From an uncultured virus (IMG/VR IMGVR_UViG_3300028886_001624) (lineage: Duplodnaviria; Heunggongvirae; Uroviricota; Caudoviricetes), in IMG/VR virus record IMGVR_UViG_3300028886_001624, positions 1 to 64,000 of that record: a stretch of 64,000 nucleotides of DNA; one strand, written 5' to 3'. Under the pieces are notes generated by a model that saw nothing but the letters and a program-made list of their open reading frames with translations, was not told the origin of the DNA and did no database searches. Of the stretch, positions 1 through 47,948 are shown piece by piece. How positions within the stretch are numbered: position 1 is the stretch's first letter; the number at the start of each line of letters is the position of its first letter. A program made the translations under genes and the position numbers.

Positions 1-139
1 GGGGGGGGGGGGGTGGAACATCCGGATTGTAGTGCATAGCACCATCGGCCACAACATAACTTACGTTTGGCTTCGGATAATCTGTGGCAACGTATGCTGT
101 ATAATCAGCGGCAGTTGCAAATTCTTTAACATACTTCAT
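1..139 (-). CDS. N-terminal leader of a BspA-like LRR gene, running off the window through a poly-C tract (partial)
   Basis: ATG at 139 reads MKYVKEFATAADYTAYVATDYPKPNVSYVVADGAMHYNPDVPPPPP; close paralogue of the leaders at 26066 and 47948. Confidence 0.8.
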   Translation of the reverse strand, partial: MKYVKEFATAADYTAYVATDYPKPNVSYVVADGAMHYNPDVPPPPP

Positions 140-232
140 AATTATTATTTTTTAAAGTTTTAAATTAAGTTATTTTAACAATAAATATTGAAATATATCA
201 TAAAATCATTTCGTTGTTTCAGATTTTTTTGG

Positions 233-240
233 TACTTTTG
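233..240 (+). promoter_or_regulatory. Bacteroidota-type -7 promoter element TAnnTTTG (also 4969, 21015, 34124, 39478, 44254, 48588, 49429, 52343, 58006, 62744)
   Basis: Same octamer, followed by CA and often preceded by TTTTATA, sits just upstream of gene or tRNA starts; matches the known Bacteroides primary-sigma -7 consensus. Confidence 0.75.
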
Positions 241-269
241 CACCGAAAATCAATCAAAAAACAAAAAAC

Positions 270-1004
270 ATGTGTAAAGTGAGTATTGAAATACCACAAG
301 AATTACTGAACTATTCGGATGGTATTGCAAGGGTAAATGTTAATGACAAGTTGAATTTCGTTAACAAGAACGGCGAACTTTTAAGCAAGGAGTGGCTCGA
401 TGATTGTTGGAATTTCCATGAAGGTTTTGCCAACGTTGAACTCAATGGTAAATATAACGTTATTAACAAGAACGGTGAACTCTTAAGCAAGGAGTGGTTT
501 GATGATTGTTGTGGTGATTTCTGTGAGGGTTTCAGTGGAGTTATACTTAATCATAAATATAATTATATTGACAAGGACGGAAACTATTTAAGTAAACAAT
601 GGTTTGACTATTGTGATGATTTCCATGAAGGTTTTGGAAAAGTTGAACTTAATAAAAAGTATAACTTCATCGACAAGAGTGGTAACTATTTAAGTAAACA
701 ATGGTTTGACTATTGTGATGATTTCAACGAAGGGTTTGCAAGGGTCACACTGAATGGAAAGTGGAATTATATTGGCAAGAAGGGTAACATTATAAGTGAG
801 CAGTGGTTTGATAATTGTCTTCGTTTTCATGAAGACTTTGGTGCTATCAAGGTTTATGATAAGTGGAATTTCATTGATAAGAATGGTAATATATTATCCA
901 AACTGTGGTTTGATGATTGCGGTGCTTTCTATGGGGGCTTTGCGATGGCTCAACTTAATGGAGAATGGAAATCTATCGACAAGAACGGTAAACTTTTAAA
1001 ATAG
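270..1004 (+). CDS. WG-repeat (KWG-like) protein
   Basis: ~35-aa repeats FxEGFAxVxLNGKxNxIDKxGxxLSxxWFD. Confidence 0.85.
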   Translation: MCKVSIEIPQELLNYSDGIARVNVNDKLNFVNKNGELLSKEWLDDCWNFHEGFANVELNGKYNVINKNGELLSKEWFDDCCGDFCEGFSGVILNHKYNYIDKDGNYLSKQWFDYCDDFHEGFGKVELNKKYNFIDKSGNYLSKQWFDYCDDFNEGFARVTLNGKWNYIGKKGNIISEQWFDNCLRFHEDFGAIKVYDKWNFIDKNGNILSKLWFDDCGAFYGGFAMAQLNGEWKSIDKNGKLLK

Positions 1005-1013
1005 AATGGAATC

Positions 1014-1652
1014 ATGAATGATAGTTTTTTAAACATGAGAATTCCAAGGAACCTCTTATCGTATAATGAAGGTGTCGCAAAGGTAAATCTTAACGGAAAG
1101 TGCAATTTCGTTAATGAGAATGGAGAACTCTTAAGTGAACAGTGGTTTCAATTTTGTGATGATTTCAACGAAGGTTTTGGTGGAGTTCAATTTAATGGAA
1201 GGTGCAATTTCGTTAACAAGAACGGTGAAATCTTGAGTGACCAATGGTTTGATAATTGTGGTAGTAAATTCAACGAAGGTTTTATATGGGTTGAACTTAA
1301 TTGCAGATGTAATTTCATTAACAAGAATGGTAATATCTTAAGCAAGCGGTGGTTTGACGATTGTTATGGTTTCCATGAAGGCTTTGCAATGGTTAAACTC
1401 AATGGTAAATGGAATTTCATTGATAATAATGGAAATATTTTAAGTGACCAATGGTTTGATAGTTGTTGGGATTTTATCAATGGTCTTGCAAAGGTTGAAC
1501 TTAATGATAAGTTTAATTTCATTGGCGAGGATGGTAACATCTTAAGCAAGCGGTGGTTTGACTATTGTTTGGACTTCAAAGAAGGTTTTGGAACGGTTAA
1601 GGTGAATGGTATGTTTTATAAAATTAACAAGAACGGTAAACTTTTAAAATAA
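1014..1652 (+). CDS. WG-repeat protein
   Basis: Same repeat; tandem paralogue. Confidence 0.85.
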   Translation: MNDSFLNMRIPRNLLSYNEGVAKVNLNGKCNFVNENGELLSEQWFQFCDDFNEGFGGVQFNGRCNFVNKNGEILSDQWFDNCGSKFNEGFIWVELNCRCNFINKNGNILSKRWFDDCYGFHEGFAMVKLNGKWNFIDNNGNILSDQWFDSCWDFINGLAKVELNDKFNFIGEDGNILSKRWFDYCLDFKEGFGTVKVNGMFYKINKNGKLLK

Positions 1653-2624: not shown

Positions 2625-2655
2625 ATGAGCAACCGGAAAAAGGTTGCTCATTTTT
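2625..2655. terminator. Hairpin terminator between convergent genes
   Basis: ATGAGCAACC / GGTTGCTCAT inverted repeat followed by T run. Confidence 0.7.
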
Positions 2656-4027
2656 CATAAACCATTGAACCACAATCAAATATCCTAAAAACTTTTTTAT
2701 TTTTGGGTATTTTTCTAAAATCTTCCTTCGAAATTCTTTCGATTTTGTTTCCGTACCTAAAGGTATACGACGGCTGTTCTATTGAAACCAACTTAAAGCC
2801 AATTAACTTAAAAACATTTTCTTTGTTTGACCACCTCATATCAACATGAACGGTAAGTTTTTCGTGACTATAGTTTTTTTCAAGATATGATATTAGTTTT
2901 GAAACCAAACCTTGGAACCTATATTTGAGGCTAGTTGCTAACCTAATAACCTCTAGATTCTTACCATTTCTATTGAAAGATAGAACACCGACCAATTCTC
3001 CTTTGAAAAATGCCCCAAGAGTAATATTTGCCCTGCCATATCCTTCCAAACAGTTCTCTTCCAAAAACTTAATCGAGTCACCTCCATCAATCTCATGGAT
3101 TGAACATTTTCTAGCCGGTATCTTTTTTCCTTTATCCATCTGAAGAATGTGAAGCAGTTTTTTCTTGACAATTTCCTTCTTCAACAACCACTCATCTTCG
3201 AAGATATGAATTAGCCTTATTCCATTCTTTTCACAACCAATCGTCTTATTCAAATGGTAATTTGAGTCTTTGGTGAACTCGTCAGAATGCCATTTAAGAC
3301 CATCGTACTCGATTCCAATGTTGTATTTTGGCAGAAAAATATCAACCTCTTTCCTACTTCCCTTTATGAGGTTTCTTTTTCTTTCGACCACTTCAAGACC
3401 GTTTTCCTTAAGAAATTCAACAACCTCTTGTTCTTGACTTGAGACGGAAACACCACATTTCGGACATCCATGTCCACGCAGATGACTATCTATCTCTTGC
3501 TTGAACTCTCCATGTACCGGGCATATGATTGAAACTTTCTCCTTTTGATTCTTAATTGGTTGTTCAATGTACTTGTATTTGTCACCGTGAATCTTATTCG
3601 CTCTTTCAACAAAGTCTTCAAATTTGATGATTTTTCCCTTGTTCCTATTTTCATTTGCGCATTTTGGGCATCCTCTTCCGCTTAAGTGATTCTGTGGTGT
3701 TTGCCAAAATTCTCCGTGCCTTGAACATACAATGCAGACTTTTGTTTCACTATTCACATATTCGACTTTGGAATAATCATACTTGTCACCGTGTACGTTT
3801 TTAGCCTTATCAACAAATTCATCACTCGTATTTTTGTGCTTTCCGCCACATACCGCGCATCCGTTTCCCCTGCTCGTATGGCAGAACGGTATTTGCCAAA
3901 ACTCTCCATGCTTTGGGCATACAATGCAGACCTTGGTACGGTTGTTGACATAGTTTACCTTTGAGTAATCATACTTGTTTCCGTGTACAACCTTAGCCTT
4001 TTGAATGAATAAGTCTCGTTTTGCCAT
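2648..4027 (-). CDS. Zinc-ribbon repeat (DUF723-like) protein with PD-(D/E)XK/Vsr-like nuclease domain; homing-endonuclease-like
   Basis: Repeats HGxKYDYSKV..CPKHGEFWQ..H..GxGCPxC; EVDIFLP..IGIEYDGLKWH; LIHIFEDEW. Confidence 0.75.
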   Translation of the reverse strand: MAKRDLFIQKAKVVHGNKYDYSKVNYVNNRTKVCIVCPKHGEFWQIPFCHTSRGNGCAVCGGKHKNTSDEFVDKAKNVHGDKYDYSKVEYVNSETKVCIVCSRHGEFWQTPQNHLSGRGCPKCANENRNKGKIIKFEDFVERANKIHGDKYKYIEQPIKNQKEKVSIICPVHGEFKQEIDSHLRGHGCPKCGVSVSSQEQEVVEFLKENGLEVVERKRNLIKGSRKEVDIFLPKYNIGIEYDGLKWHSDEFTKDSNYHLNKTIGCEKNGIRLIHIFEDEWLLKKEIVKKKLLHILQMDKGKKIPARKCSIHEIDGGDSIKFLEENCLEGYGRANITLGAFFKGELVGVLSFNRNGKNLEVIRLATSLKYRFQGLVSKLISYLEKNYSHEKLTVHVDMRWSNKENVFKLIGFKLVSIEQPSYTFRYGNKIERISKEDFRKIPKNKKVFRIFDCGSMVYEK

Positions 4028-17920: not shown

Positions 17921-20230
17921 TTATGTAGTCTTTGTCCAATTGTATTTACCTAGGTAATAGTTTCCTAGTCCCATCCAAACATCATATCCACTGTTACCGC
18001 TTGGTACTGTCAGTGTACCGCCGGTCTTAACATTTTGGAACGTGGTGCTTGTTATTGTGGGTGCAACGACTGCCCTTGAGTTAATGCTAGCCAATTTTGA
18101 GCAATAATTGAATGCACCGGCACCGATGCTTGTAACACTTGAGCCAATTGTAACGGAGGTCAGATTACTATTATAGTAGAAAGCATTGGTTCCGATATAT
18201 GTAACGCTGTCCGGGATTGTAACGCTGCTCAACTTAGAGCATGACGCAAATGCTAAATCATTTATACTTGTAACGGAGTTAGGGATTGTTATTGCACTTA
18301 TTTGTTGGCTAGAATATGAATTTTCCCCTATTATTTGTATCGTGGACGGCAGTACAGTGTTCACAGAGCACCGCATTGTCTTATTCGTACTAGTCTCAAC
18401 AATTGCGTTACAGTTATTCCTTGAGTCATATACAGTATTTGCAGCATCAACCGTTATACTTGTAAACCCACTACAATTTCTGAACGAATCCGTTTCTATT
18501 AAAGTTACTGTCCTAGGAATATTTATCGATGTCAATTTGCCGCACAATTCGAATGCCCTCTTTCCAATTGAAACCAAACTATTCGACATGTTTATAGTTT
18601 GAAGTTTTGAACAATTCGAGAAACTAGTTTCTTCAATATATTTAACCGTATCCGGTATTGTACACGAAGTTAAGTTTGTACATCCGCTGAAGGTTGATTT
18701 TTTAATTGTATCAATTTCCGCATAGACTTTAACATTTGTTAATCCGGAACAGTTGGCGAAAGCACTAGTACCAATTGACTGTACACTGTTTGGTATTGTA
18801 ACTGAAGTTAAACCCGAACAGTTCCAAAAACAATTATTACCTATGGATAGCACACTTGACGGTATTACTACTGATGTTAGTTTACTGCAATATTCAAATG
18901 CTCTGTCACCAATACTCTTTACTGAGTTACCGATTGTCACACTAGTTATATTCCTTGTGGTAGAGAACATACTCCCGGAAATGCCGGACAGACTATTTCC
19001 AAGCACAACACTAGTAAGTCCGGTACAATTATAGAAGATGCCACTTTCAATTGTTGTAACACTATCCGGTATTATCATGCTCGTTAAAGAAGTGCAGTTA
19101 GTGAAAACAGAACTAGCCATTCTTGTGACGCTATTTGGGATAGTTACACTAGTTAAACTAGAACAACCCATAAAAGCACCGGTATTAATCACGGCAACTT
19201 TATTTCCAATGGTTAGAGACGTTAGGCTAGTACATCCGCTTAAAGCACCTTGACCAATATTAGTAACGTTGTTTGGTATTATTATCTTTGTTAAACTAGT
19301 ACAATTGCTTAAAGCATTCATACCAATGTCGGTTACAGTATTCGGGATTGTTATTCCGGCCAAATTAGAACATTGGCAATATGTATTCGATAGTATAGCC
19401 GTAACACCACTTGGTATGTTTGTGCTTGAAAGCGACGTACATCCACTGAATGCATTATATCCAATATATTTAACCGTACTAGGTATTGTTGCGCTTGTAA
19501 GACTAGTACATCCGGCAAATACCCCACCACCCAACGATACCGTACCTTCTTTAAACGATATTGATGAGATTGACTTATCAACACACTCGAACGCTATATT
19601 ATTTATATATATGACGTTATTGAACCTATGTGTCGTATCAGCAGAATAAGTTGTCCACCAAGGTACATTGTAAAACGAACCCGGGTTGATGACAGTAACA
19701 GTGTCCGGAATCGTTACGTTGGTTAAACTTGTACAATTTACAAATGCACTTTCGCCTATGGCCTCCAAACCAACCGGAAGCGTCACGCTAGACAAACTAG
19801 TGCATCCGCTGAAACAGCATGGGTCAAGCGTGTTTATTTTACCCTTGAATTCAATTTCCCTTAATTTCGTACAACCACCGAAAACAGAATACGGTATTTT
19901 TTCTAGATTACAGTATAGGACAAGTTTTTCTAAGTTTGTATAAGTCTCAAACTGCATACTTAAAAAACTAGTACACAATGTACCAACCTCCATTTTCACG
20001 ATTGTACTCTTGTATTGTAGTATCTCCGAACGTATTTTGGTTGTCATATTGCCCATTCCCTCAATTTCAACGATTGAATCGTCTGAAAGAGTCAGTCTAA
20101 CGAAGAATGCCGGTGTGTAATGGAAATCCGTCAGTTCATCACACACATAAAGACCAACTTCGTTGTACTCGTCACTGTTCAAGAAGTTTTCATATTCTGT
20201 CTTGGTTGCAAATCTTTTAATGTATTTCAT
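17921..20230 (-). CDS. BspA-type (LRR_5) leucine-rich repeat protein with leader fused in frame
   Basis: 23-aa repeats LTSxTIPxSVTxIGxxAFxxC; N-terminus MKYIKRFAT..FHYTPAFFVRLTL homologous to the poly-C leaders. Confidence 0.9.
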   Translation of the reverse strand: MKYIKRFATKTEYENFLNSDEYNEVGLYVCDELTDFHYTPAFFVRLTLSDDSIVEIEGMGNMTTKIRSEILQYKSTIVKMEVGTLCTSFLSMQFETYTNLEKLVLYCNLEKIPYSVFGGCTKLREIEFKGKINTLDPCCFSGCTSLSSVTLPVGLEAIGESAFVNCTSLTNVTIPDTVTVINPGSFYNVPWWTTYSADTTHRFNNVIYINNIAFECVDKSISSISFKEGTVSLGGGVFAGCTSLTSATIPSTVKYIGYNAFSGCTSLSSTNIPSGVTAILSNTYCQCSNLAGITIPNTVTDIGMNALSNCTSLTKIIIPNNVTNIGQGALSGCTSLTSLTIGNKVAVINTGAFMGCSSLTSVTIPNSVTRMASSVFTNCTSLTSMIIPDSVTTIESGIFYNCTGLTSVVLGNSLSGISGSMFSTTRNITSVTIGNSVKSIGDRAFEYCSKLTSVVIPSSVLSIGNNCFWNCSGLTSVTIPNSVQSIGTSAFANCSGLTNVKVYAEIDTIKKSTFSGCTNLTSCTIPDTVKYIEETSFSNCSKLQTINMSNSLVSIGKRAFELCGKLTSINIPRTVTLIETDSFRNCSGFTSITVDAANTVYDSRNNCNAIVETSTNKTMRCSVNTVLPSTIQIIGENSYSSQQISAITIPNSVTSINDLAFASCSKLSSVTIPDSVTYIGTNAFYYNSNLTSVTIGSSVTSIGAGAFNYCSKLASINSRAVVAPTITSTTFQNVKTGGTLTVPSGNSGYDVWMGLGNYYLGKYNWTKTT

Positions 20231-25486: not shown

Positions 25487-26066
25487 TTATATGTCACAAT
25501 TAAGTGCATTTTGATTAATTGCAGATATTGCCGCCCTGCTTGCGGCATCTAAAGCCCAACATCCACAGAAAGCATAATCACCGATGCTTGTAACACCACT
25601 GCCAAGTGTGCAAGTTGTCATGGCAGAACAACCATCGAAAGCACCACCACTAATACTTGTAACACTATCCGGAATTGTTATACTTGTTAAACCAGTACAA
25701 CTCCAAAAAGTCACATAACCAATGCTTGTAACACCACTACTAATGGTACAACTTGTCATTGCGGGAAAATAATAAAAAGCCCAATCGCCAATACTTGTGC
25801 AAAGTGTACCAACTTCGGCATTGACACAAGTTGCGCTGTATGGATTTGTCATTGCACTTGTCAGTTCTCCACTGCCTTGCAGTTCAACAACTTCACCATT
25901 GTTAAGTGTTAATTTACAGAAGAAAGGTGGGGGGGGGGGGTAAAACGTCCGGATTATAGTGCATAGCACCATCGGCCACGACGTAACTTACGTTTGGCTT
26001 TGGGTAGTCCGTGGCAGTATAAGCAGTATAGGCTGCATTATCTGCAAATTCTTTAACGTACTTCAT
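25487..26066 (-). CDS. Short BspA-type LRR gene, frameshifted at C12 tract (25929-25940)
   Basis: Leader from ATG 26066 stops at 25914 (50 aa); LRR body is in the +1 frame after the tract. Confidence 0.85.
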
Positions 26067-26211: not shown

Positions 26212-28935
26212 ATGAGTAAAGACAGAAAAAAACTTTTGCACATTCATAGTAGCGTGAATGACAAACAGCCAACGCCGGAAACACTTGAGTTCGGTGAACT
26301 TGGCGTAAACATTGCTGAGGGCAATGCTTTTATTTCAACTAAGAATATTGGCGGTGAAGTCGTAAGATTTTCTGAGGACGGCACAATCATCGATTGGATG
26401 GAGTACAAGGAAGTATTCCCCTATGAGGCATACGTTAGGGGTTCCAATGCTGCCTCAAGCGGTGTGACCGAATCAGACTTAGTCAACAACAAGTCCAACA
26501 TTATCGTTAAACTCAACCAAGTTGTCGCAAAGAACACCGAATATGACGAAAAGGTTAACGGTGCCAAGGATATCTATGGCAATTTAATCAATCCAATCGG
26601 TACTGACAATTATCGTGACGGTGCCGGTCTTGCAATTGATATGTCTAGGTATGCCATGATAGGTGCAAATCCATCATTCAGTTCTCTCACAACCACTTGC
26701 AATACGACACTGCAAGGTCAGACAACCATCAGCGGAAGCACTTCATCTTCTTGCGGCAACGGTTTGAATGTCAATGTTCAGAATGTGTGCATCGAGGCAA
26801 CGTCTGAATTAAACGAATATGGTGTTGAGAAGACCAATGTCGGTAAGAGTTGTAACGGAAACTCCGTATCCAATAATACTAGCGTCAATGGTAAGAAGAT
26901 ACTGATTTCTGCCACCAACGGCGATAACACCGTTGATATTGATGGATGCAGCCGGATAAGCGGAAGGACAAACGACTTTGTCATCACGGAGTGTACCAAC
27001 AATGCCGGTAAGGTAGAGATAGATACGACAAACGTAAATGTAAGCGCGTCTACATCTATCGTAAAGTCTTGTGATAAGATTTCACTGCATTCAACAAATA
27101 TTACACTCTCTGACAGTGGCTGCTCCGATAACGGACAAGTTACCGTTGAGACGAACGACCTCTGCCTTGTCGGAGAAACAAAGGCTACTTTGTACGGTAA
27201 CACAACCAACGTGGGTGTTGATTGCGACGGTTCGGCAAAGGCTAGTGAGACAAACGTGAACGGTACAACCATTAACATTACCGGCAACACGATTAATGAA
27301 AGTGCTGTCACAATCAATGAGAGTGCAACGACCATCAATGAAATTGCAAACAACTACGTTGTAAGCGGTGCAAATGCTTGTATTGCCACTAGCAGCAATG
27401 TCTCTATCGGCGGTGACGCATCTACAAAGATAGGTACCGACTGTAACGGCAACGTAATCTCAAACGTGACTGAGATTAATGCGACTAGTTCAATTACCAT
27501 CAATTCTCCAATTACCAATATAACCGGTGATACCCATATCGGCGGAAATACATATATAAGCGGAACTACCATCATAAGTGGTGACACCACGATAAGCGTA
27601 AACTGCCCATCACTCACGAACAACACTCTTGATGAGGCACTATGCGAGGCATTCAACCGTTCTGTTGTAAGCGTAACGGCTTCTACTGCGACTCCGGCCG
27701 GTACAAACTATCAGAAATATACGGTAAGACAAGATAGCACCAACCGGTCCGTTGACATTGCAATCCCAAATGTTACAATAAGTTCTACAACAAGCGGGTT
27801 GGGAGACAATATTCTTAAGAGTTATGACATTATGTACGATGGTGTCAGCCGTGGTAAAATCGACATTCCAAAGGACTTCCTCGTTAAATCCGGCTCCGTC
27901 AAGGTCGTTGAAAGGCCGGATGACCCATACAGCGGGGCACAAGTTGGTGACAAGTATATTGACTTGGTATTGAATGTCTTGAGTGGAAGTTCGGAACCCG
28001 ACCAACACGTTTATATACCAATTAAGGACTTGGTTTCCAACATGGAGTTTAAGTCGACTAGCGGCTCAATCTCGATTGCAACGGCAACAACACAAGGAAG
28101 TGAGTCTGTTGACTTGAACGTTGCACACCCGCTCAAGTGGAGTGCCGGTGCATTTACCGCAGATACTACGGGGTATGACGGTTCGTCAGAGAAGACAATC
28201 ACCGTACCGACTAGTCTTTCACACCTCACTCACGGTAACTTAACCTTGACACACAATGGCACTAGTGTTACTTATGACCCATCTACGGCAACTTCTGCAA
28301 CATTGGCCCACAGTGCATTGACCGCAACATATGAAGCAACTAGCGGAAAGACCGGAAGTGTGACATATAATACATCAGCCGCCACCGGTATCTCAATCCC
28401 GACTTGTGTGAACCATCTTGGCCGTTCGACGCTTGCTTGGAACTATGGAAGCACCACAACCGCAACAAATGGTACCTATGACCCCGGAGCAAACTGTAAC
28501 GGTACGAGTTCTAGTACGGTTATCATCCCTAAAACAATAGGCAACATCACGGATGATGTAATCACAATCAATCCTTCGGATTCTTGTATTACCGTAAACG
28601 GTGACATCAACTCCAACAACGTAATTAAGGGCACTGCCTTCTACGCTAGTTCAGACTTGAACCTTAAGGAGAACATCAACGACATATCGTCTGAGGACAT
28701 TGACAAGGTTTCAAATGTTAATCTTAAGGAATTCAACTTCAAGTCCGATGAGAACAAGGAAAAGAAGTACGGTGTAATAGCACAAGACCTTCAAGTTGCC
28801 GGACTCGGTAATATCGTGGAGAAGGGAAGCGACGGTTTCTTAAGTGTTGACTACACATCATTCTTGCTACTTAAGATTGCAAGCCTAGAGAAGAAAATCG
28901 ATGAACTCACAAACAAGATTGAAGGAATTAAGTAG
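26212..28935 (+). CDS. Tail fibre/spike with C-terminal peptidase S74 chaperone domain
   Basis: Thr/Ser/Asn-rich body; SSDLNLKENI, YGVIAQDL and terminal coiled coil. Confidence 0.8.
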   Translation: MSKDRKKLLHIHSSVNDKQPTPETLEFGELGVNIAEGNAFISTKNIGGEVVRFSEDGTIIDWMEYKEVFPYEAYVRGSNAASSGVTESDLVNNKSNIIVKLNQVVAKNTEYDEKVNGAKDIYGNLINPIGTDNYRDGAGLAIDMSRYAMIGANPSFSSLTTTCNTTLQGQTTISGSTSSSCGNGLNVNVQNVCIEATSELNEYGVEKTNVGKSCNGNSVSNNTSVNGKKILISATNGDNTVDIDGCSRISGRTNDFVITECTNNAGKVEIDTTNVNVSASTSIVKSCDKISLHSTNITLSDSGCSDNGQVTVETNDLCLVGETKATLYGNTTNVGVDCDGSAKASETNVNGTTINITGNTINESAVTINESATTINEIANNYVVSGANACIATSSNVSIGGDASTKIGTDCNGNVISNVTEINATSSITINSPITNITGDTHIGGNTYISGTTIISGDTTISVNCPSLTNNTLDEALCEAFNRSVVSVTASTATPAGTNYQKYTVRQDSTNRSVDIAIPNVTISSTTSGLGDNILKSYDIMYDGVSRGKIDIPKDFLVKSGSVKVVERPDDPYSGAQVGDKYIDLVLNVLSGSSEPDQHVYIPIKDLVSNMEFKSTSGSISIATATTQGSESVDLNVAHPLKWSAGAFTADTTGYDGSSEKTITVPTSLSHLTHGNLTLTHNGTSVTYDPSTATSATLAHSALTATYEATSGKTGSVTYNTSAATGISIPTCVNHLGRSTLAWNYGSTTTATNGTYDPGANCNGTSSSTVIIPKTIGNITDDVITINPSDSCITVNGDINSNNVIKGTAFYASSDLNLKENINDISSEDIDKVSNVNLKEFNFKSDENKEKKYGVIAQDLQVAGLGNIVEKGSDGFLSVDYTSFLLLKIASLEKKIDELTNKIEGIK

Positions 28936-30107: not shown

Positions 30108-32366
30108 ATGGCATATAAATATAAAGTTGCATATTGTGGCGGACTAATGGGCAGCAATGGCTATATTCAACCCAATAAAATGAACATTCCAAATATCACT
30201 AGCGGAGACTCCGCTACCACAACTACGGAATGGGATGACTTCAATCTATATGGTAAAAATGAAACAGATGCTGATGCATTTGTTTTTGAAATAGATGATA
30301 GTGATACAAGTGCCAACTATCGTCCGAAATTACATGTATTTAAGTCAAAGTGTTCCCCAACAATGAAATGTTACTATAGTTACCAAAATAATGGTGGAAG
30401 ACTTATCTCTGACAAAACACATGTTTGGGCAAAGAAAGTTCAATACGGGAATGATAAGGAAATTTTCGTAATGACCCAATATGATGATTGGAATGACCCA
30501 AATAACAAATATCGTCTAGCAGATAACTATTATAGTAACGATTCTCCATATAGCGGATTTGCAAGCCCGGTATCTATAGAATATCTGTTCACCAATAATG
30601 GTACAACCGAACCGCAAAGTCTTGATATACCGGATTCAACAAACGTTGGTATGTTTAGCGGATGTACCGGTATAACAAAATGTGAATTGCCTTGTCAAAT
30701 GAGGAACATATCCACGGCCACATTCAGCGGGTGTACCTCCCTTATGAGTTATAGCGAAACACCGGATTTTGTTGATACCATCAATGCTAGTGCATTTACA
30801 AACTGCTCATCCATGACAAATATAGTTATTGGTAAATATGCTAGTTTGAGTGGTATGAGTATTTTTACGAATTGCAGCAACGCAACATCAATAGAATGGA
30901 GCGGCTTGAATTCCGGAGACACTAAAGAACGAATGACCGAAATTCCGGCAAATTGCTTTAATGGATGCAGTAATTTATCTACAACAAAATTCAAAAATGG
31001 AGATGTTAACGAAATCTTTATCCCTAATGGAATAACAACCATTGGAGGCAGTGCCTTTACGGATTGCACAGAAATTAAGGATTTAGATTTAAATGGTGTG
31101 ACAACCATTGGTGCTAACGCTTTCCTAAATTGCACTAAATTAAGTGGCATTACTAATTTATCTAATGCTGTAACTATTGGTGGTTATGCCTTCACAGATT
31201 ATGGTTGGAACCCTAAGAGCATTAATATTGGGAGTTATAATCTTGTTGATGTTCAGAATATTGGGGAATATGCTTTCAAATTAATAAATATAATAAATGG
31301 TTCGCAAGGTGTTTTTATAAATGCTACATGCGAGGTTGGTAATTATGCGTTTCTTGGTTCCAATATAAACGGTGATGTTGACGTTAAGGGTATTATTAAT
31401 GAAGGCACATTTTCACAATCAAACATCAATGGTGATGTTAATGTTCATCATAACCTTAATGTAAATAGTGCCTTTTATTCCTCAACTATAGACGGCAATG
31501 TTAGTGTTAGTGGTGACGTGAATAATAACAGCAATTATGACTACGCCTTCAATAGGGCATCAATAAGCGGAAATGTTACTATTAGTGGTAATGTTGGTTA
31601 TCATGCTTTTGAAGATGCTAAAATAGGTGGTAATATTAATGTTTATAGCAGAGCCTCTTCTTCTGCTTTCACGAGTGCTTCAACAAGTGGTAGCGTTACA
31701 ATTGGTGATGATGTTGCAGATTCTGCCTTTGAGAGTTCACGAATAAGTGGGGATGTTATTGTTAATGGTAGTGTTGGCAGTTATGGTTTTACATTGGCAC
31801 AAATTAGTGGCAGTGTTACTATTAATGGCGATGTTAGTAACTATGCCTTTTCGTCAGCAAACACAACTACCGGAAGTGTGGTATTTTCCGGTAATACTAT
31901 TGGTTGGGGTGCCTTTACTTATTGTGACATCAATGGTTTAAACAACACCTCAGATTCCACAACAATGGATTTATCAAATATCTCTAATTACGGAATCGGT
32001 CAAGATGCATTTCATACCGCAAATATTGGGCAGATTGATAAAATCATTTTTGGAAAAGATAACAGCGAACTTACAATACCAATTGGTTCTAGGGCATTTT
32101 ATAATTTTAATCGCAATATCACAAGTTTAACGTTAGAAATTAATGGCAAAACCAAATTACAAGTAGAAGACGACACATTTTCCGGCACTTCAAAAACAAT
32201 AACTGTTAAGTTTAATCAATACACGGATGGTCAACCAATAGAGGATTGGATGAGATATTATTTTGGAGTTGGAGATAATAGTAAATGGTGTAATGTTAGG
32301 GCTTTTAATGTAGTTACGTTCGTTGATAAGAATGGTACTCAAATACAAAATGTACCATCATGTTAG
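30108..32366 (+). CDS. BspA-type LRR protein with degenerate repeats
   Basis: IPNGITTIGGSAFTDC repeats, then AFxxxxIxGxVxI repeats. Confidence 0.8.
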   Translation: MAYKYKVAYCGGLMGSNGYIQPNKMNIPNITSGDSATTTTEWDDFNLYGKNETDADAFVFEIDDSDTSANYRPKLHVFKSKCSPTMKCYYSYQNNGGRLISDKTHVWAKKVQYGNDKEIFVMTQYDDWNDPNNKYRLADNYYSNDSPYSGFASPVSIEYLFTNNGTTEPQSLDIPDSTNVGMFSGCTGITKCELPCQMRNISTATFSGCTSLMSYSETPDFVDTINASAFTNCSSMTNIVIGKYASLSGMSIFTNCSNATSIEWSGLNSGDTKERMTEIPANCFNGCSNLSTTKFKNGDVNEIFIPNGITTIGGSAFTDCTEIKDLDLNGVTTIGANAFLNCTKLSGITNLSNAVTIGGYAFTDYGWNPKSINIGSYNLVDVQNIGEYAFKLINIINGSQGVFINATCEVGNYAFLGSNINGDVDVKGIINEGTFSQSNINGDVNVHHNLNVNSAFYSSTIDGNVSVSGDVNNNSNYDYAFNRASISGNVTISGNVGYHAFEDAKIGGNINVYSRASSSAFTSASTSGSVTIGDDVADSAFESSRISGDVIVNGSVGSYGFTLAQISGSVTINGDVSNYAFSSANTTTGSVVFSGNTIGWGAFTYCDINGLNNTSDSTTMDLSNISNYGIGQDAFHTANIGQIDKIIFGKDNSELTIPIGSRAFYNFNRNITSLTLEINGKTKLQVEDDTFSGTSKTITVKFNQYTDGQPIEDWMRYYFGVGDNSKWCNVRAFNVVTFVDKNGTQIQNVPSC

Positions 32367-32404
32367 TTTTATAATAAGTTATTAAATATTTGTAATATAA
32401 TAGT

Positions 32405-34033
32405 ATGGCAGGATGGAATTTAAATAACGGCAATGCAGATGTTCACCAAAACAGTGGTGCATTAACATATCTGTTAGGGAGGGGTGGTTATGTCGGTTAT
32501 CTCTGTAGTGGTGCGCCAACCTCAGAATGCGGTAATCCGTCACAACAAACCGTTACTCTTGAATTGGGTGAAGATAGTAGTAATTTTCACCCGTTTCATA
32601 CAATGTGTGGTGAGATAACCCAAACATTCGTCTGTGAACCTTGCAATAGGGACGCTCTAACGATGTGGTTTAATGACGGTACTAGTAATGGTAACCAAAG
32701 ATATGATAATATATTATATTATAATAATTGGAACGATGCCAAAACATACATTGATTCAAAAAATGTCGATGAATGTAGAATAATTGTCTTGGATAATTCT
32801 GACACGCATGATGGAATACATGTTGGCGGTCAGAGATTTGATACTAGTGCATATACTGACAGTACCTATCCGTTTATTGCCAAATTAAACGATAAGGGCG
32901 AGCCAATTAGCAGCGGTACCGTATCCGGTAAAACGGTATATTACCCGGAAAATAAATACAAGTCACAGAAATATAATGGACACAAGATAAAATATCACGT
33001 TAAAGGAAACACCATACCGAATAATTTCTTCAGTGGAAACAGCACCAATCAGTTCAATAAGGATTTGGTTGAAGTTTATTTCCAAGGAAGCATTAAGGAG
33101 ATTGAAGACGGTGATATCAATAATGGTGCCTTCAGTAAATGTTATGGTCTAAGTGCATTAACCCTAAACAATGTTGAGAAGATTGGCACTAGCGCATTTA
33201 ACGGATGTACTGCCTTAACATATGTCGATTTCGGTCATTGGTGCAGCAGTGGAAGGACTAGCACCAACTTAAGAGAAATCGGTGCATACGCATTTAAGAA
33301 TTGTCAAAGTCTAAAGGGTATCACAATATTACCCGGATTAAAGACAATTGACATTGCCGCCTTTGATTCATGTGATGGTTTGAAAGATGTGGTGCTGCCG
33401 AATACCGTTAGGAAATTAGGCAATAGTGCTTTCCGTGGTTGTACAAGTTTATCAAGTATAACAATTTCTAGTGGTATAACTGAAGTTGGCAACACTGTTT
33501 TTGAAGATACCCCGTGGTATCAAGGGATTAGCGGAAGTTCAATCAGCGGACATATCGTATATGTTGAGGATATTGCTTATATTTGTGAAAATGAATCAAT
33601 AACTTCAGCCACGTTTGCAAATAATACGAAATGTATAGCCGGTACTGCTTTTATGGGCTGTAGCAATTTGACAAATATTGTTATCCCCAATAGCGTTGTG
33701 AGCGTTGGTAATAGTGCTTTTAGAGACTGTACCGGAATTACAAGTTGCACTATCGGAAACAGTGTTAAGACTATTGGAAATTATAGTTTTGGTGATTGTT
33801 CTAGTTTAACATCCATAACAATACCAAGCAGTGTTGAAACAATTGGTAGTGGTGCTTTTAGTAGTTGTTCCAACCTAACAAGAATAACCTCACTTTCCAT
33901 GACCGCACCGACAATAGAAAATAATACTTTCGCCAACGTAGGGTCTAATGGTACCCTTTACGTTCCAAGTGGCAGTAGTGGCTATGATGTTTGGATTGCC
34001 CAATTAAATAATTGGACAATTATTGAACAGTAA
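32405..34033 (+). CDS. BspA-type LRR protein
   Basis: LRR_5 repeats; APTI..GTLYVP..GYDVW C-terminal cap. Confidence 0.85.
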   Translation: MAGWNLNNGNADVHQNSGALTYLLGRGGYVGYLCSGAPTSECGNPSQQTVTLELGEDSSNFHPFHTMCGEITQTFVCEPCNRDALTMWFNDGTSNGNQRYDNILYYNNWNDAKTYIDSKNVDECRIIVLDNSDTHDGIHVGGQRFDTSAYTDSTYPFIAKLNDKGEPISSGTVSGKTVYYPENKYKSQKYNGHKIKYHVKGNTIPNNFFSGNSTNQFNKDLVEVYFQGSIKEIEDGDINNGAFSKCYGLSALTLNNVEKIGTSAFNGCTALTYVDFGHWCSSGRTSTNLREIGAYAFKNCQSLKGITILPGLKTIDIAAFDSCDGLKDVVLPNTVRKLGNSAFRGCTSLSSITISSGITEVGNTVFEDTPWYQGISGSSISGHIVYVEDIAYICENESITSATFANNTKCIAGTAFMGCSNLTNIVIPNSVVSVGNSAFRDCTGITSCTIGNSVKTIGNYSFGDCSSLTSITIPSSVETIGSGAFSSCSNLTRITSLSMTAPTIENNTFANVGSNGTLYVPSGSSGYDVWIAQLNNWTIIEQ

Positions 34034-34148
34034 TTAAAATTGGTATTATCCAATTTATACAATGCAGTCAGCGATGGCTGCATTTTTCTTTTTATAAAAC
34101 TTGTTTTTTTAACTTTTTTTATATATCTTTGCAAAAAAGCATAAATAT

Positions 34149-37362: not shown

Positions 37363-37536
37363 CACTCATGTTGTGTAATTTTTTGATTTTACTGTGAAAA
37401 TTGGGTTAATTTTTCATTAATCCAATTTTTTTGTGTGAATTTTATGGTTTGGCACGGATTTTGTTATATCAAAGATAAAATACAAATAATAAAAAAAAAA
37501 GAAAATAACATATTATTAACGTTTAAAAATTTGATT

Positions 37537-44312: not shown

Positions 44313-44840
44313 ATGGCTAAAGTTAAGAATGACAATTTTGCCTTTAGATTTAGGGTGAATGATGAAATAAGGGTATCATCCGAAGTAAGGGTTGTTGGTG
44401 AAGGAATTGAAAGCAAGGTCGTACCATTTTCAGAGGCTAGGCGAATTGCCAATGAAATGGGTCTTGACATGGTTGAGTTGCAGACAAAGGGTGCAAACCC
44501 CATCATAAAGATATGCAACTATGAGAAGATGATTTATGAACTAAAGAGGAATGCCAAGAAAAACAAGCACCAATCGAAGCCGCTAAAGGAAATACAACTC
44601 AGTGTAAATATCGCCAAGCATGACTTGGAGACCAAGGCAAACAATGCCAAGAGATTCTTGGATGATGGAAGCAAGGTAAAGGTCGTGCTGACCATGAAGG
44701 GCAGAGAATTGTCTAGAAGGGAAGAGAATAAGAAATCCATATTGGAGTTCATTGTTATGCTAGAGGATGTGGCTGTTCCGGAATTCACTCCCAAAGATGA
44801 GGGCAATAAGACATATGTCATCTTGAAAAAGAAAGCATAA
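44313..44840 (+). CDS. infC: Translation initiation factor IF-3
   Basis: VNDEIR..EVRVV, GLDMVE, KEIQL..I..HDLETK, KVKVVL..KGRE. Confidence 0.92.
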   Translation: MAKVKNDNFAFRFRVNDEIRVSSEVRVVGEGIESKVVPFSEARRIANEMGLDMVELQTKGANPIIKICNYEKMIYELKRNAKKNKHQSKPLKEIQLSVNIAKHDLETKANNAKRFLDDGSKVKVVLTMKGRELSRREENKKSILEFIVMLEDVAVPEFTPKDEGNKTYVILKKKA

Positions 44841-44876
44841 AACTTAAAATATTAACTAATAACATTTTTTCAAACA

Positions 44877-45830
44877 ATGGGGTTTGTAATCAATCTGAAA
44901 GCGGAAACCGGCCTAGTTGACCGTTCTGAAAACACCGCTAGGTTCTACAAAGACGTTAAAGACTATAAACCTTTCTCGAAAGAGGAAGAGGTCAAGTGGT
45001 TCACCATGCTAGATGCTTGTAGGAAAAAGATGGCTGCATGTAAGAAAAACGGAGACAAGGAGGAATATCTTAAGGCAAACAAAGAATATGAGTCAGTCAG
45101 AGAAAGAATAATATTGTGTAATCAGCGATTGGTCATCGCCGCTGCAAAGAATTATTCCACGACCGATACGCTCACTGACTTCATAAGTGAGATTAACTTC
45201 GGATTAATTGAAGCCGTGGACAAATACGATGTAACCAAGGGGGTCAAGTTTGCAAGTTACGCCATGTGGTATATAATAAGGGCAATCAACTTGTTTAAAT
45301 ACGGTGAAATGGAAATGGTTCAGAGAAGCAACGGGTTCAAGACATTCCACGTCATGTCAAAGGCTAGGAACAAGTTCATACAAGAGAACGAACGGGAACC
45401 GACAAACGATGAACTGTTGGAGATTCTTAACAATATATACGGAAAGGACATTAAAGACAAGAATGACTTGTTGGATATGAACTATTCTAGTATTGACTTG
45501 GACACATCTAGTGAAGATGACGGGTTGGGTATGAATGAGATTGCAGAATACAATAGAATAAGCGCCTCACAAAACGATTATGTCAAAAAGGCTTCAGACG
45601 AATTCAATTCGGCACTGATTTCATCTTTAATTACCGTATTGAACCCAAAAGAGAAACAAATTATCGAAATGAGATTCGGGCTAACCAAAGACAACGGGCT
45701 TCAGCGTGAACTCGAACTGACTGAAGTTTCCGATAGAATCGGAATTTCATCAGAGCGCGTCAGACAATTGGAATGCAGTGCAATAGAAAAACTTAGGAAA
45801 GAATATGAAAGACGTATAAAGAAAATGTAA
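44877..45830 (+). CDS. Second sigma-70 family sigma factor
   Basis: NQRLVIAAAKNY, GLIEAVDKYD, KFASYAMWYI, EREPT, SSERVRQLE. Confidence 0.9.
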   Translation: MGFVINLKAETGLVDRSENTARFYKDVKDYKPFSKEEEVKWFTMLDACRKKMAACKKNGDKEEYLKANKEYESVRERIILCNQRLVIAAAKNYSTTDTLTDFISEINFGLIEAVDKYDVTKGVKFASYAMWYIIRAINLFKYGEMEMVQRSNGFKTFHVMSKARNKFIQENEREPTNDELLEILNNIYGKDIKDKNDLLDMNYSSIDLDTSSEDDGLGMNEIAEYNRISASQNDYVKKASDEFNSALISSLITVLNPKEKQIIEMRFGLTKDNGLQRELELTEVSDRIGISSERVRQLECSAIEKLRKEYERRIKKM

Positions 45831-45836
45831 AAAAAG

Positions 45837-45866
45837 AAAGGTGGTCAGATATTGACCACCTTTTTT
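45837..45866. terminator. Hairpin terminator between convergent genes
   Basis: AAAGGTGGTCA / TGACCACCTTT. Confidence 0.75.
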
Positions 45867-45877
45867 ATTGTTAAGTA

Positions 45878-47948
45878 TTATTGTTCAACCTTGGTCCAAT
45901 TAGGCAATTGGTTCATCCAAGTGTTATAACCACTGCTACCTTGTGGAACTGTTAAAGTACCACCGGTCTTAACACTATAAAAAGTAGAATTTTGTATTGT
46001 TGGTGCTGTTGTTGCAAGTGAAGTTATTGCTGATAAATTAGAACAATTTTGGAAAGCACTACCACCAATACTTGTAACACCACTACCAATTGTACAAGTT
46101 GTCATAGCAGAACACCGATAGAAAGTATTATTACCAATACTTGTAACACTGCCCGGAATTGTTATGCTTGATAAACTTGTACATTGATAGAAAGCATCAC
46201 TACCAATGCTTGTAACACCGTCCGGAATTGTTATGCTTGATAAACTAGAACAATTATTGAAAGTGTTACTACCAATGCTTGTAACACTGCCCGGAATTGT
46301 TATACTTGATAAACTTGTGCAACCACTGAAAACATAACTACCAATGCTTGTAACACTGCCCGGAATTGTTATACTTGATAAACTTGTACAACTAGCGAAA
46401 GCATAGTCATAAATGCTTGTAACAGTGTTTGGTATAATAGTTGTCTTACAGCCAACAACTAAAGTGTTCGTACTTGTTTGAATAATCGCATTGCAATTGT
46501 TTCTTGAGTCATAGGTTGTATTTGCACCATCAACAGTTATACTTGATAAACTAGAACAACTAGCGAAAGCACCATTACCAATGCTTGTAACACTGTCCGG
46601 AATTGTTATACTTGTTAAACTAGTACAATTTCGGAAAGTAGCACCGTCAATGAATTTTGTATCATTTTTAAGCATATAAGTTGCTAAGGTTTTGTTAACT
46701 ACTTCAACAGCACAAGTGTCAGCATATCTGATATCATCAACAACCGGAAGACTTGTACATTCGGTGAAAGCACTATCACCAATGCTTGTAACACCACTTC
46801 CAATATGACATGTTGTCATGGCACTACACTTTCTGAAAGCACTATTACCAATACTTGTAACGCTGTCCGGAATTGTTATGCTTGATAAACTACGACAACC
46901 ATTGAAAGCATAGTCATCAATGCTTGTAACACCGTCCGGAATTGTTATGCTTGATAAACTACGACAATTATTGAAAGCATAGTCATCAATGCTTGTAACG
47001 CCACTTCCAATGTGGCAACTTGTCATAGCAGAACAAGTATCGAAAGCATTATCACCAATACTTGTAATACCATTTCCAATTGTACAAGTTGTCATAGCAG
47101 AACATCTATTGAAAACACCAATACCAATGCTTGTAACGCTGTCCGGGATTGTTATGCTTGTTAAACTACGGCATTGAGCGAAAGCACTATCACCAATGCT
47201 TGTAACACTGTCCGGTATTGTTATGCTTGATAAACTAGAACAATTATTGAAAGCACCATTACCAATGCTTGTAACACTGCCCGGAATTGTTATACTTGAT
47301 AATTTAGAACAATTTCGGAAAGCATTGAAACCAATGGCTGTAATATTATCACCAATGACATATTCTTTCACTTGAACACCAAAAATATTTGAGCATGCAG
47401 TGTTATTATTAAGAATTGTATTAGAGTTGATTGTTACACTTGTTAAATTAGAACAATTATAGAAAGCATTAGTACCAATAGTTGTGACACCACTGCCAAT
47501 GGTACAAGTTGTCATGGCAGAACACCGATAAAAAGCCTGTCCACCAATACCTGTAACACTGTCCGGAATTGTTATGCTTGATAAACTAGTACATTGGGCG
47601 AAAACATTATTACCAATACTTGTAACACCACTTCCGATTGTACAAGTTGTCATGGCAGAACACCTAGTAAAAGCACTAGCACCAACGCTTGTGCAAAGTG
47701 TACCAACTTCAGCACTGACACAAGTTGCGCTGTAACCGCTTGTCATTGCTCTTGTAAGTTCTCCGCTACCTTCAATCTCAACAACTTCACTGTTGTTAAG
47801 GGTTAACTTACAGAAGAAAGGTGGGGGGGGTAGGATTATAATGAATACCACTCTCAGCCACGACATAACTTACGTTTGGCTTTGGATAGTCCGTGGCAAC
47901 ATATGCTGTATAATCGGCAACAGTTGCAAACTTTTTTAAATACCACAT
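45878..47948 (-). CDS. Long BspA-type LRR gene, frameshifted at C8 tract (47823-47830)
   Basis: Leader from ATG 47948 stops at 47808 (46 aa); LRR body is in the +1 frame; near-identical 69-bp repeats. Confidence 0.85.

What the first reader, a model, noticed from the sequence alone, without database searches (positions are those of the whole stretch)
1..47948. Dispersed LRR gene family switched by poly-C tracts (phage phase variation or programmed frameshift)
Seen: three minus-strand cassettes (ATG at 139, 26066, 47948) share a ~40-codon leader (..DYPKPNVSYVVA..HYNP) and similar upstream sequence, each followed by a C run (>=13, 12, 8). In both complete copies the leader frame reads CCC ACC TTT CTT CTG TAA and stops, while the BspA-LRR body (CCA CCT TTC TTC TGT AA = PPFFCK) is in the +1 frame. 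C11/C14 and C7/C10 respectively would restore the frame. The paralogue 17921-20230 has the same leader fused in frame with no tract (FHYTPAFFVRLTL), so the leader belongs to the protein. Known: homopolymer slippage drives ON/OFF switching in bacterial contingency loci, and CCC-C is a +1 slippery context. Inference: the phage switches a repertoire of LRR binding modules (receptor binding or counter-defence) stochastically, or uses one shared +1 recoding event, since both copies have the same offset.
Basis: partly seen in the sequence, partly recalled or inferred. Interest (0 to 1): 0.9.

Follow-up and report, generated by a model that had tools for sequence, protein, structure and literature searches.

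The report
Poly-C on/off switches in phage adhesin genes
A giant phage from the cattle gut carries over a dozen related binding-protein genes, each with a slippage-prone run of C's that puts about half of them out of frame, which looks like a set of random on/off switches of a kind known in a few other phages.

Summary
The 135.8-kb record is a fragment of a ~366.7-kb rumen phage that closes on itself. That phage holds 14 cassettes with the same leader motif.

- **Cassette layout:** a 39-codon N-terminal module, then a C run, then a BspA-type LRR body.
- **States:** of 12 uninterrupted runs (C8-C12), 6 are in frame and 6 are out. Four need +1 and two need +2, so one shared +1 recoding event is not supported.
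- **Homopolymer is dispensable:** a sister paralogue encodes the same PPP with CCT CCA CCA.
- **Non-random placement:** every G run of 8 or more in the record lies in a cassette, and none has length 7.
- **Off copies look maintained:** out-of-frame bodies stay open for 148-650 codons.
- **Length varies between assemblies:** one cassette is C11 (on) in one assembly and C10 (off) in another that differs by 2 SNPs in 3 kb. Another reads 9, 11 or at least 13, and six contig ends fall at runs.
- **The leader is portable:** it heads 1,577 protein clusters with LRR, Ig-like or unknown payloads, so it is probably a docking tag.

Best reading is DNA slipped-strand phase variation of a phage adhesin repertoire (0.65). 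No raw reads were served, so switching within a population is unproven. The scan flagged the same phage before on other fragments. The mechanism is known from Campylobacter and T-even phages; the multi-locus layout is new.

The parts
1..13 (-). Poly-C run of cassette 1 (13 or more; the record starts inside it). The body lies outside the record. In the 366.7-kb contig the same cassette has C11 and a 564-aa in-frame product.
14..139 (-). N-terminal module (leader) of cassette 1, MKYVKEFATAADYTAYVATDYPKPNVSYVVADGAMHYNPDV
140..200 (-). Conserved 5' untranslated region of cassette 1, with the cassette-specific motif AAAATAACTTAATTTAAAA at 158-176
25941..26066 (-). Leader of cassette 2
25929..25940 (-). 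C12 run of cassette 2. It is out of frame with the body in +1; C11 or C14 would be in frame. The leader-frame stop is at 25914-25916.
25487..25928 (-). Short LRR_5 body of cassette 2 (about 150 codons after the run). It lacks the family's C-terminal cap.
47831..47948 (-). Leader of cassette 3
47823..47830 (-). C8 run of cassette 3. It is out of frame with the body in +1; C7 or C10 would be in frame. The leader-frame stop is at 47808-47810.
45878..47822 (-). Full-length LRR_5 body of cassette 3 (650 codons after the run, with the C-terminal cap ..WTKVEQ)
45837..45863 (-). Terminator-like hairpin (11 pairs plus a T run) just after the cassette 3 stop. The cassette is its own transcription unit.
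17921..20230 (-). Run-less paralogue (769 aa). The leader is fused in frame to the LRR_5 body.
26212..28935 (+). Tail-fibre-like gene (Peptidase_S74 chaperone domain; phrog_1980), divergent from cassette 2
30108..34033 (+). Two LRR_5 proteins (30108-32366 and 32405-34033) in the tail-fibre gene block, without leader or run. The second shares 43% identity and the same C-terminal cap with the cassette bodies.

Best explanation
These are contingency loci of a phage. Each cassette is its own transcription unit. It encodes a 39-residue portable N-terminal module, then a proline linker written as a run of C's, then a BspA-type LRR binding body.

During phage DNA replication the run gains or loses a C by slipped-strand mispairing. 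The body then falls in or out of the leader's frame. Each of about 13 loci switches independently and heritably, so a burst yields progeny that make different subsets of the LRR proteins.

Shown here: the anatomy, the mix of frames, the dispensability of the homopolymer for the protein, and run-length differences between near-identical assemblies.

Inferred: that slippage is frequent and reversible within a population, that the N-terminal module docks the payload on the virion, and that the payloads bind host surface structures.
For: 1. **Position and number.** 14 leader-motif cassettes lie in the 366,743-bp contig that contains this record at 100% identity. The run always sits after codon ~40.
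2. **Mixed states.** Of 12 uninterrupted runs, 6 are in frame (C10 or C11). Six are out of frame (C8, C9, C10, and three of C12), each one or two steps from an in-frame length.
3. **Off bodies are maintained.** They stay open for 148-650 codons in a 37% GC genome. Those of cassette 3, L008 and L021 keep the C-terminal cap.
4. **The homopolymer is not needed for the protein.** Sister paralogue L016 writes IPPPLCKL as CCT CCA CCA and L018 uses CCA CCA CCA. CCC is 13.9% of Pro codons. Most of the 60 homologues have only P or PP at this site.
5. **Length polymorphism.** L015 has G11 (517 aa, on) and its counterpart L030 in another assembly has G10 (off), with 2 SNPs over 3,021 nt. Cassette 1 reads C11, C9 or at least 13 in three contigs.
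6. **A/T runs are stable by comparison.** Over 47,142 nt compared between assemblies, 0 of 10 A/T runs of 8 or more differ, against 2 of 9 G/C runs.
7. **Other alleles.** Leader-only peptides from further assemblies imply other off states of cassette-2-like and cassette-4-like alleles.
8. **Assemblies break at the runs.** Six contig ends fall at runs.
9. **Binding role.** The bodies match LRR_5 at E 1e-97 to 1e-162. The model has pLDDT 95.8 and its best fold matches are BspA-type LRR proteins. A paralogous LRR_5 protein sits in the tail-fibre block.
10. **Portable leader.** It is N-terminal in 1,577 clusters. Of 98 examined, 43 carry LRR_5, 4 carry Ig-like domains or DUF7507 without LRR_5, and 51 carry no Pfam family.
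Against: - **No raw reads.** All 21 runs listed were served as contigs only. In the four laid, the only bridging contigs shown (a 193-nt piece in each of X1 and X2, one sample, possibly the source) give the reference G10 at 88637. The other two runs were not bridged in the rows shown.
- **The assemblies may not be independent.** Five of the six runs of this record are identical in the 366.7-kb contig.
- **Contig ends are weak evidence.** Two of the three lengths for cassette 1 come from contig ends, which are error-prone.
- **Small numbers.** 2 of 9 against 0 of 10 is not significant.
- **Long runs may be off by one.** Runs of C12-C13 are hard to sequence.
- **Inferred alleles.** The allele states are inferred from peptides, not seen as DNA.
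- **Some copies look dead.** Cassette 2 lacks the C-terminal cap. L012 has an interrupted run (C5TC4) yet is out of frame. Some copies may therefore be decaying rather than switching.
- **No location data.** Nothing shows that the proteins are in the virion. No match to the leader was found in 50,697 GenBank phage records.
Confidence: 0.65

Rival explanations
1. Expression-level slippage. The DNA run is fairly stable. RNA polymerase stutters on the C run, or ribosomes slip +1 on CCC-C during a polyproline stall. 'Off' copies would then still yield some full-length protein, and run length would set the dose rather than on/off.
For: Four of the six out-of-frame uninterrupted runs need exactly +1. 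The run encodes 3-5 consecutive CCC prolines. From recall, not from any call here: CCC-C is a known +1-prone site when tRNA-Pro modification or EF-P is limiting. Runs of 9 or more are the length class where transcriptional slippage is known (recalled, mainly for A/T runs). This can coexist with DNA slippage.
Against: Six cassettes need no shift and two need +2. One orthologue differs at the DNA level between assemblies. The 0-frame stop lies 4-5 codons after the run, so there is no pause codon at the site. No stimulatory element was looked for. The record's tRNA-Pro (UGG) is reported by ARAGORN as an ordinary tRNA with its anticodon at position 35. No RNA reads could be laid.
Confidence: 0.15
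2. Sequencing or assembly artefact. All runs are really in frame and the out-of-frame lengths are homopolymer miscalls.
For: G/C runs of 12-13 are error-prone. Six contig ends fall at runs, and sequence near those ends is visibly noisy. The two differences between assemblies could be miscalls.
Against: Cassettes 3 and 5 are out of frame with runs of only 8 and 9, lengths that short-read consensus calls reliably (general knowledge). The same off lengths recur in the 366.7-kb contig. The same off-state gene products are on record from a second source. No A/T run differs. An artefact would not explain why the run exists at one codon of 13 paralogues while a sister copy avoids it.
Confidence: 0.07
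3. Decay. The out-of-frame copies are young pseudogenes of an over-duplicated family, and the run is just a mutational weak spot.
For: Cassette 2 is short and lacks the C-terminal cap. L012 has an interrupted run and is out of frame. Jumbo phages carry many redundant paralogues.
Against: Off bodies of 230-650 codons carry no second lesion. The run is kept as pure C in 12 of 13 run-bearing copies, although synonymous codons would stabilise it. Every off length is within two steps of an on length.
Confidence: 0.06
4. Isoform toggle. Out of frame, the body is still translated from an ATG in the +1 frame inside the leader. The run would then switch each payload between a leader-tagged form and an untagged form, not between on and off.
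For: Gene callers did call such bodies from internal ATGs (161, 348/360 and 662 aa). Bacteroidota translation does not depend on a Shine-Dalgarno site (recalled).
Against: The internal ATGs follow from Tyr-Val codons (TAT GTN) of the leader and are present in in-frame copies too. The two +2 copies have no such start before the body. The model shows residues 1-80 as confidently structured, with strands on both sides of the PPP.
Confidence: 0.05

Closest known systems
Hypermutable polyG tracts of Campylobacter Fletchervirus phages (Sorensen et al. 2021, Cell Rep 35:109214). Only the title was seen, in the reference list of PMC10877375. The paper itself is not held.
   Same: A lytic-phage genome carries G/C homopolymers inside genes. 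By its title, these create phenotypic diversity and help evade bacterial resistance.
   Different: Here about 13 paralogous loci share one leader module and one run position, in a ~367-kb rumen phage with BspA-type LRR payloads. Details of the Campylobacter case (which genes, how many) are recalled, not read.
Contingency loci of coliphages T2/T4 (Gomez, Barrick and Waters, bioRxiv 10.1101/2025.10.21.683753). The abstract and section 8 were read.
   Same: Polymerase slippage at simple repeats gives reversible frameshifts and bet-hedging in phage progeny.
   Different: Their survey counts repeats of 6 bases or more scattered over unrelated genes. [quoted passage not shown] Here long runs (8-13) are concentrated in one binding-protein family at a fixed site.
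Neisseria opa gene family (recalled, no call): about 11 dispersed paralogues, each switched by CTCTT repeats in the leader-peptide coding region
   Same: A dispersed multigene adhesin family. Each locus has its own promoter and its own frame-setting repeat in the 5' leader-coding part. Switching is independent and gives combinatorial display.
   Different: Opa is bacterial, uses a pentamer repeat, and its leader is a cleaved signal peptide. Here the organism is a phage, the repeat is a homopolymer, and the leader is a folded N-terminal module with no hydrophobic signal.
BspA-type LRR surface proteins (Pfam LRR_5; structures 4fs7, 6mlx TpLRR, 4cp6 PcpA)
   Same: The repeat family and fold are the same.
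   Different: The bacterial members are secreted surface proteins. The phage copies have no signal peptide by inspection and carry a phage-specific N-terminal module.
Other phage tropism switches: Mu Gin/G-segment inversion and diversity-generating retroelements (recalled)
   Same: They generate receptor-binding diversity among the progeny of one phage.
   Different: Those use site-specific inversion or mutagenic retrohoming. No invertase or reverse transcriptase was sought or seen beside the cassettes, and the variable element here is run length.

Membership tests
Simple-sequence-repeat contingency locus (slipped-strand phase variation) | Long homopolymer inside the 5' part of the coding region | tested here: met
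   C8-C13 after codon ~40 in 6 cassettes of the record and 12 of the whole phage
Simple-sequence-repeat contingency locus (slipped-strand phase variation) | Run length sets the frame, and a change of one or two units restores a long open frame | tested here: met
   Frame analysis of every cassette
Simple-sequence-repeat contingency locus (slipped-strand phase variation) | Run length differs between otherwise near-identical genomes | tested here: met
   L015 G11 against L030 G10 with 2 SNPs in 3,021 nt. Cassette 1 reads 9, 11 or at least 13. Only 2 of 9 runs differ, and the independence of the assemblies is unknown.
Simple-sequence-repeat contingency locus (slipped-strand phase variation) | The repeat is over-represented and not dictated by the protein | tested here: met
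   7 G/C runs of 8 or more against 0.73 in shuffles, and no run of length 7. A sister paralogue uses mixed Pro codons.
Simple-sequence-repeat contingency locus (slipped-strand phase variation) | High-frequency, reversible length change within a clonal population | not testable with these tools
   Only contigs were served, no raw reads
Programmed +1 ribosomal frameshift | The same shift is required in all members and conserved in orthologues | tested here: not met
   6 in frame, 4 at +1, 2 at +2. One orthologue is on or off depending on the assembly.
Programmed +1 ribosomal frameshift | Stop or slow codon in the A site at the shift site | tested here: not met
   The 0-frame stop lies 4-5 codons after the run (ACC TTT CTT CTG TAA). 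Slow-codon status of ACC was not assessed.
Programmed transcriptional slippage | mRNA run lengths are more varied than those of the DNA | not testable with these tools
BspA-type LRR (Pfam LRR_5) | Profile match above the curated cut-off, and an LRR solenoid fold | tested here: met
   321-531 bits against a cut-off of 27.7. Model pLDDT is 95.8, and the top fold matches are 4fs7, 6mlx and 4cp6.
BspA-type LRR (Pfam LRR_5) | Secreted or surface-anchored via a signal peptide, as in the bacterial members | tested here: not met
   By inspection only. The first 40 residues (MKYVKEFAT..DYPKPNVSYVVA..) have no hydrophobic stretch. No signal-peptide predictor was run.
Phage receptor-binding protein with a conserved N-terminal virion anchor | One N-terminal module is shared by different C-terminal payloads | tested here: met
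   1,577 clusters at E of 0.001 or better, with the match at residues ~1-40. Of 98 of the top 150 that were scanned (those of 140 aa or more), 43 carry LRR_5, 4 carry Big_2, Big_3_5 or DUF7507 without LRR_5, and 51 carry no family.
Phage receptor-binding protein with a conserved N-terminal virion anchor | Presence in the virion and binding to a tail or baseplate partner | not testable with these tools
   No proteomics is available and no partner is known. The only context is a paralogous LRR_5 gene in the tail-fibre block.

The most novel reading that the evidence does not exclude
A single ~367-kb phage runs an Opa-like repertoire. About 13 independently switching loci each fuse, or fail to fuse, a common 39-residue docking tag to a different LRR adhesin. 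Every burst would then release virions displaying different random subsets, up to 2^13 combinations. This would be a bet-hedging answer to the phase-variable capsules and surface layers of rumen Bacteroidota. The proline linker between tag and payload would be the spot that evolution turned into the switch, because it tolerates any in-frame length.
Probability: 0.3. Interest if true: 0.8.

Novelty: new variant of a known kind. Interest (0 to 1): 0.6.

Why it matters
Homopolymer switches in phages have been shown by experiment in very few systems, and there in single or scattered genes. A phage that keeps a whole family of binding proteins, each under its own switch, would show that viruses can use the multi-locus combinatorial phase variation known from bacterial pathogens.

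It would also bear on three practical points:
- how host range is predicted from a metagenomic phage genome, since half the adhesin genes look 'broken';
- how gene callers treat such genes, since they are split into a 45-50-aa leader and a start-shifted body;
- why assemblies of such phages break, since six contig ends here fall at the runs.

The portable 39-residue leader, present on 1,577 protein clusters, is also a handle for finding phage display proteins in gut viromes.

Tried and rejected
- **Reads.** Only Logan contigs were served. Laying X1-X4 on L005 (three runs) gave one bridged run, at 88637, with G10 in X1 and X2, which are the same sample and possibly the source. Nothing was usable at the other two runs, and no indel rows fell at runs among the rows shown. 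Within-sample heterogeneity is therefore untested.
- **GenBank phages.** There was no match to 10 kb of the window and none to the 39-aa leader at E of 0.01 or better.
- **Other run-bearing phages.**
  - C8 or more followed by FCKLT in viral contigs found only this phage's contigs.
  - HYNP followed by C8 or more gave 3 loci, 2 of them chance.
  - C7 or more followed by FCKLT in genome contigs gave 39 loci; 4 passed a first body-motif filter and none of these had the leader or an LRR body.
  - The looser leader pattern in viral contigs gave 15 loci. Only the 6 from this phage's contigs were true.
- **Inversion idea.** The record's 3' end looked like a cassette promoter pointing outward. The 366.7-kb contig shows it is simply the next cassette (L009) on the + strand.
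- **Upstream motif TGCAAAGATATATAAAAA.** It is not cassette-specific. It has 27 copies in the record and is the reverse complement of a Bacteroidota-type promoter of neighbouring genes.
- **Literature.** Searches for BspA/LRR phage tail proteins and for homopolymer phase variation in metagenomic phages listed nothing on this family (listings only).

Full report
**1. Observation**

- Each has a conserved 5' region and a leader of about 40 codons (MKYVKEFAT..DYPKPNVSYVVA..HYNP), followed by a run of C's: 13 or more at the start of the record, 12 at 25929-25940 and 8 at 47823-47830.
- In the two complete copies the leader frame stops 4-5 codons after the run, and the LRR body is open in the +1 frame.
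- The paralogue at 17921-20230 has the leader fused in frame without a run.

This is not chance.
- All six G runs of 8 or more in the 135,815-bp record lie in such cassettes.
- G-run lengths fall from 121 (length 4) to 6 (length 6) and 0 (length 7), then reappear at 8, 9, 10, 10, 12 and 13.
- Block shuffles give a mean of 0.73 G/C runs of 8 or more, against 7 observed.

**2. The system is larger than the finding**

The record holds six run-bearing cassettes. The three outside the window are at 69667 (C10), 81940 (C9) and 88637 (C10). Two of the six are in frame, giving 247 and 428 aa. A second run-less paralogue lies at 99174-99860.

The record is a phage. PHROG hits include a head maturation protease, a tail fibre, sigma factors and several homing endonucleases. 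The sequencing runs that hold it are labelled bovine gut or rumen metagenomes.

It is only a fragment.
- A 366,743-bp metagenome contig (Ga0310695_10000021) is 100% identical over every shared locus.
- Three further IMG/VR contigs (G001-G003) tile the rest.
- The end of the big contig and the start of G003 fall in the same cassette. G003's start lies about 26 nt before the big contig's start. The genome therefore closes at about 366.7 kb.

That genome has 14 cassettes with the leader motif. Twelve have uninterrupted runs, one has an interrupted run (C5TC4) and one has none.

| State | Cassettes |
|---|---|
| In frame (6) | C10 x3, C11 x3 |
| Out of frame, +1 (4) | C8, C9, C12, C12 |
| Out of frame, +2 (2) | C10, C12 |

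Every out-of-frame length is one or two steps from an in-frame length.

**3. What the parts are**

*Bodies.*
- They are BspA-type LRR, matching Pfam LRR_5 at 321-531 bits against a cut-off of 27.7.
- An AlphaFold model of the 247-aa member has pLDDT 95.8. Its best fold matches are BspA-type LRR proteins 4fs7, 6mlx and 4cp6.
- Residues 1-80 are confidently structured, with strands on both sides of the PPP, so the leader is part of the protein.

*Leader.*
- A profile of 11 leaders (39 positions) matches 1,577 cluster representatives at E of 0.001 or better, nearly always at residues 1-40.
- I scanned the 98 of the top 150 that were at least 140 aa long. Forty-three carry LRR_5, four carry Big_2, Big_3_5 or DUF7507 without LRR_5, and 51 carry no Pfam family.
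- The leader is therefore a portable N-terminal module. The junction behind it is commonly proline-rich.
- This agrees with an earlier scan note (e1-5633525) that reads such a module as a virion anchor. That remains an inference.

*Context.*
- Cassette 2 is divergent from a tail-fibre gene carrying a Peptidase_S74 domain.
- Two LRR_5 genes follow in that block. One shares 43% identity and the same C-terminal cap with the cassette bodies.
- Cassette 3 has its own terminator.

**4. Why the run looks selected as a switch**

- Sister paralogue L016 encodes the same junction (IPPPLCKL) with CCT CCA CCA, and L018 uses CCA CCA CCA.
- CCC makes up only 13.9% of proline codons.
- Most of the 60 homologues found with residues 1-95 have just P or PP at this site. 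No other phage in IMG/VR or in the GTDB genomes shows the run. The run is thus a lineage-specific expansion of a linker that tolerates any in-frame length.
- Out-of-frame bodies remain open for 148-650 codons. Those of cassette 3, L008 and L021 keep the C-terminal cap.

**5. Does the length vary?**

There is some direct evidence.
- Cassette L015 has G11 (in frame, 517 aa) in the big contig. Its counterpart L030 in IMG/VR contig G001 has G10 (out of frame). Only two SNPs separate them over 3,021 nt, and both copies are mid-contig.
- Cassette 1 reads C11 in the big contig, C9 at the end of G002 (flanked on both sides) and at least 13 at the start of this record.
- Over 47,142 nt compared between assemblies, 0 of 10 A/T runs of 8 or more differ, against 2 of 9 G/C runs. 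The only other indel lies 5 nt from a contig end.
- Six contig ends fall at runs.
- Leader-only peptides from other assemblies imply further states. A cassette-2-like allele reads PPPH.., two C's shorter than here. A cassette-4-like allele is out of frame, whereas cassette 4 is in frame here. These states are inferred from peptides, not seen as DNA.

There are limits.
- The assemblies may share data, and five of the six runs are identical between them.
- Contig ends are noisy.
- No raw reads were served. The laid contigs bridged only one run, which had the reference length.

**6. Mechanism and rivals**

| Reading | Confidence | Main points |
|---|---|---|
| DNA slipped-strand phase variation at about 13 independent loci | 0.65 | See sections 4 and 5 |
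| RNA polymerase or ribosome slippage on the run | 0.15 | Could add leaky expression and is not excluded |
| Pure sequencing artefact | 0.07 | Unlikely for the C8 and C9 copies; does not explain why the run exists |
| Decay into pseudogenes | 0.06 | May apply to single copies: cassette 2 lacks the cap and L012 has an interrupted run |
| Isoform toggle from internal ATGs | 0.05 | Possible but unsupported |

A single shared +1 recoding event is not supported. Six copies need no shift and two need +2. One orthologue changes state between assemblies. No stop sits at the shift site.

**7. Comparison with what is known**

- Phage homopolymer switches are in print for Campylobacter Fletchervirus phages. 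I saw only the title, because the paper is not held.
- They are also reported for T2/T4, where I read the abstract and section 8. [quoted passage not shown]
- The layout most resembles the Neisseria opa family (recalled): dispersed paralogues, each with a frame-setting repeat in the leader-coding part.
- Two literature searches listed nothing on this LRR family in phages.
- The scan has flagged the same ~366-kb phage before, on other fragments (e1-5709573, e1-5709579), with the same reading.

**8. Verdict**

This is a real, non-random feature. The mechanism is a known kind, in a new multi-locus, leader-tagged layout. Switching itself is not yet shown.

Noticed in passing
window 1-64000 and the whole record G000: The 135.8-kb 'genome' is a fragment of a ~366.7-kb jumbo phage. 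It is 100% identical to parts of a 366,743-bp metagenome contig that closes on itself at one cassette. Six contig ends in the assemblies fall at poly-C runs.
   Followed up: yes
27 sites in G000, e.g. window 34116-34133, 21007-21024, 48580-48597, 52335-52352: The motif TTTTTATATATCTTTGCA (+ strand sense) lies about 15 nt upstream of many + strand genes and contains TAtcTTTG. From recall this matches the Bacteroidota -7 promoter box (TAnnTTTG), which suggests a Bacteroidota host and use of the host sigma factor.
   Followed up: partly
window 2648-4027, 5347-6258, 22288-23700, 40026-40934, 53009-53602: At least five HNH or homing-endonuclease genes lie in 64 kb; the first four match phrog_559 and relatives, and 53009-53602 matches other HNH PHROG families.
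   Followed up: no
window 37435-39423, 44313-44840, 8648-9355, 44877-45830, 23693-24373: The phage encodes a full-length Hsp70 (DnaK-like, PF00012 at 664 bits), a translation-initiation-factor-like protein, two sigma factors and a ClpP-like head maturation protease.
   Followed up: no
window 52377-62916; G000 64992-65079 and 121034-121108: The phage carries nine tRNA genes: Gln, Arg, Met x2, Gly, Cys and Phe in the window, and Ser and Pro(UGG) outside it.
   Followed up: no
G000 123790-123860 (outside the window): A C-rich intergenic stretch holds several C runs (C8, C6, C5, C6) separated by TATA-like spacers. This is the only C run of 8 or more on the + strand, and it is not a cassette.
   Followed up: no
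protein P0004 (from a 366,366-bp contig of another source) against L015: The orthologue of the 517-aa L015 protein is 369 aa in another assembly, with the same leader and PPPP. This suggests that the number of LRR repeats also varies between strains.
   Followed up: no
window 270-1004: A WG_beta_rep (PF14903) protein is encoded divergently from cassette 1.
   Followed up: no
window 35041-35601, 36218-36727, 49465-50649: Auxiliary-type genes are present: dTDP-4-dehydrorhamnose 3,5-epimerase, a phosphoheptose-isomerase-like protein and a tellurite-resistance-like protein.
   Followed up: no
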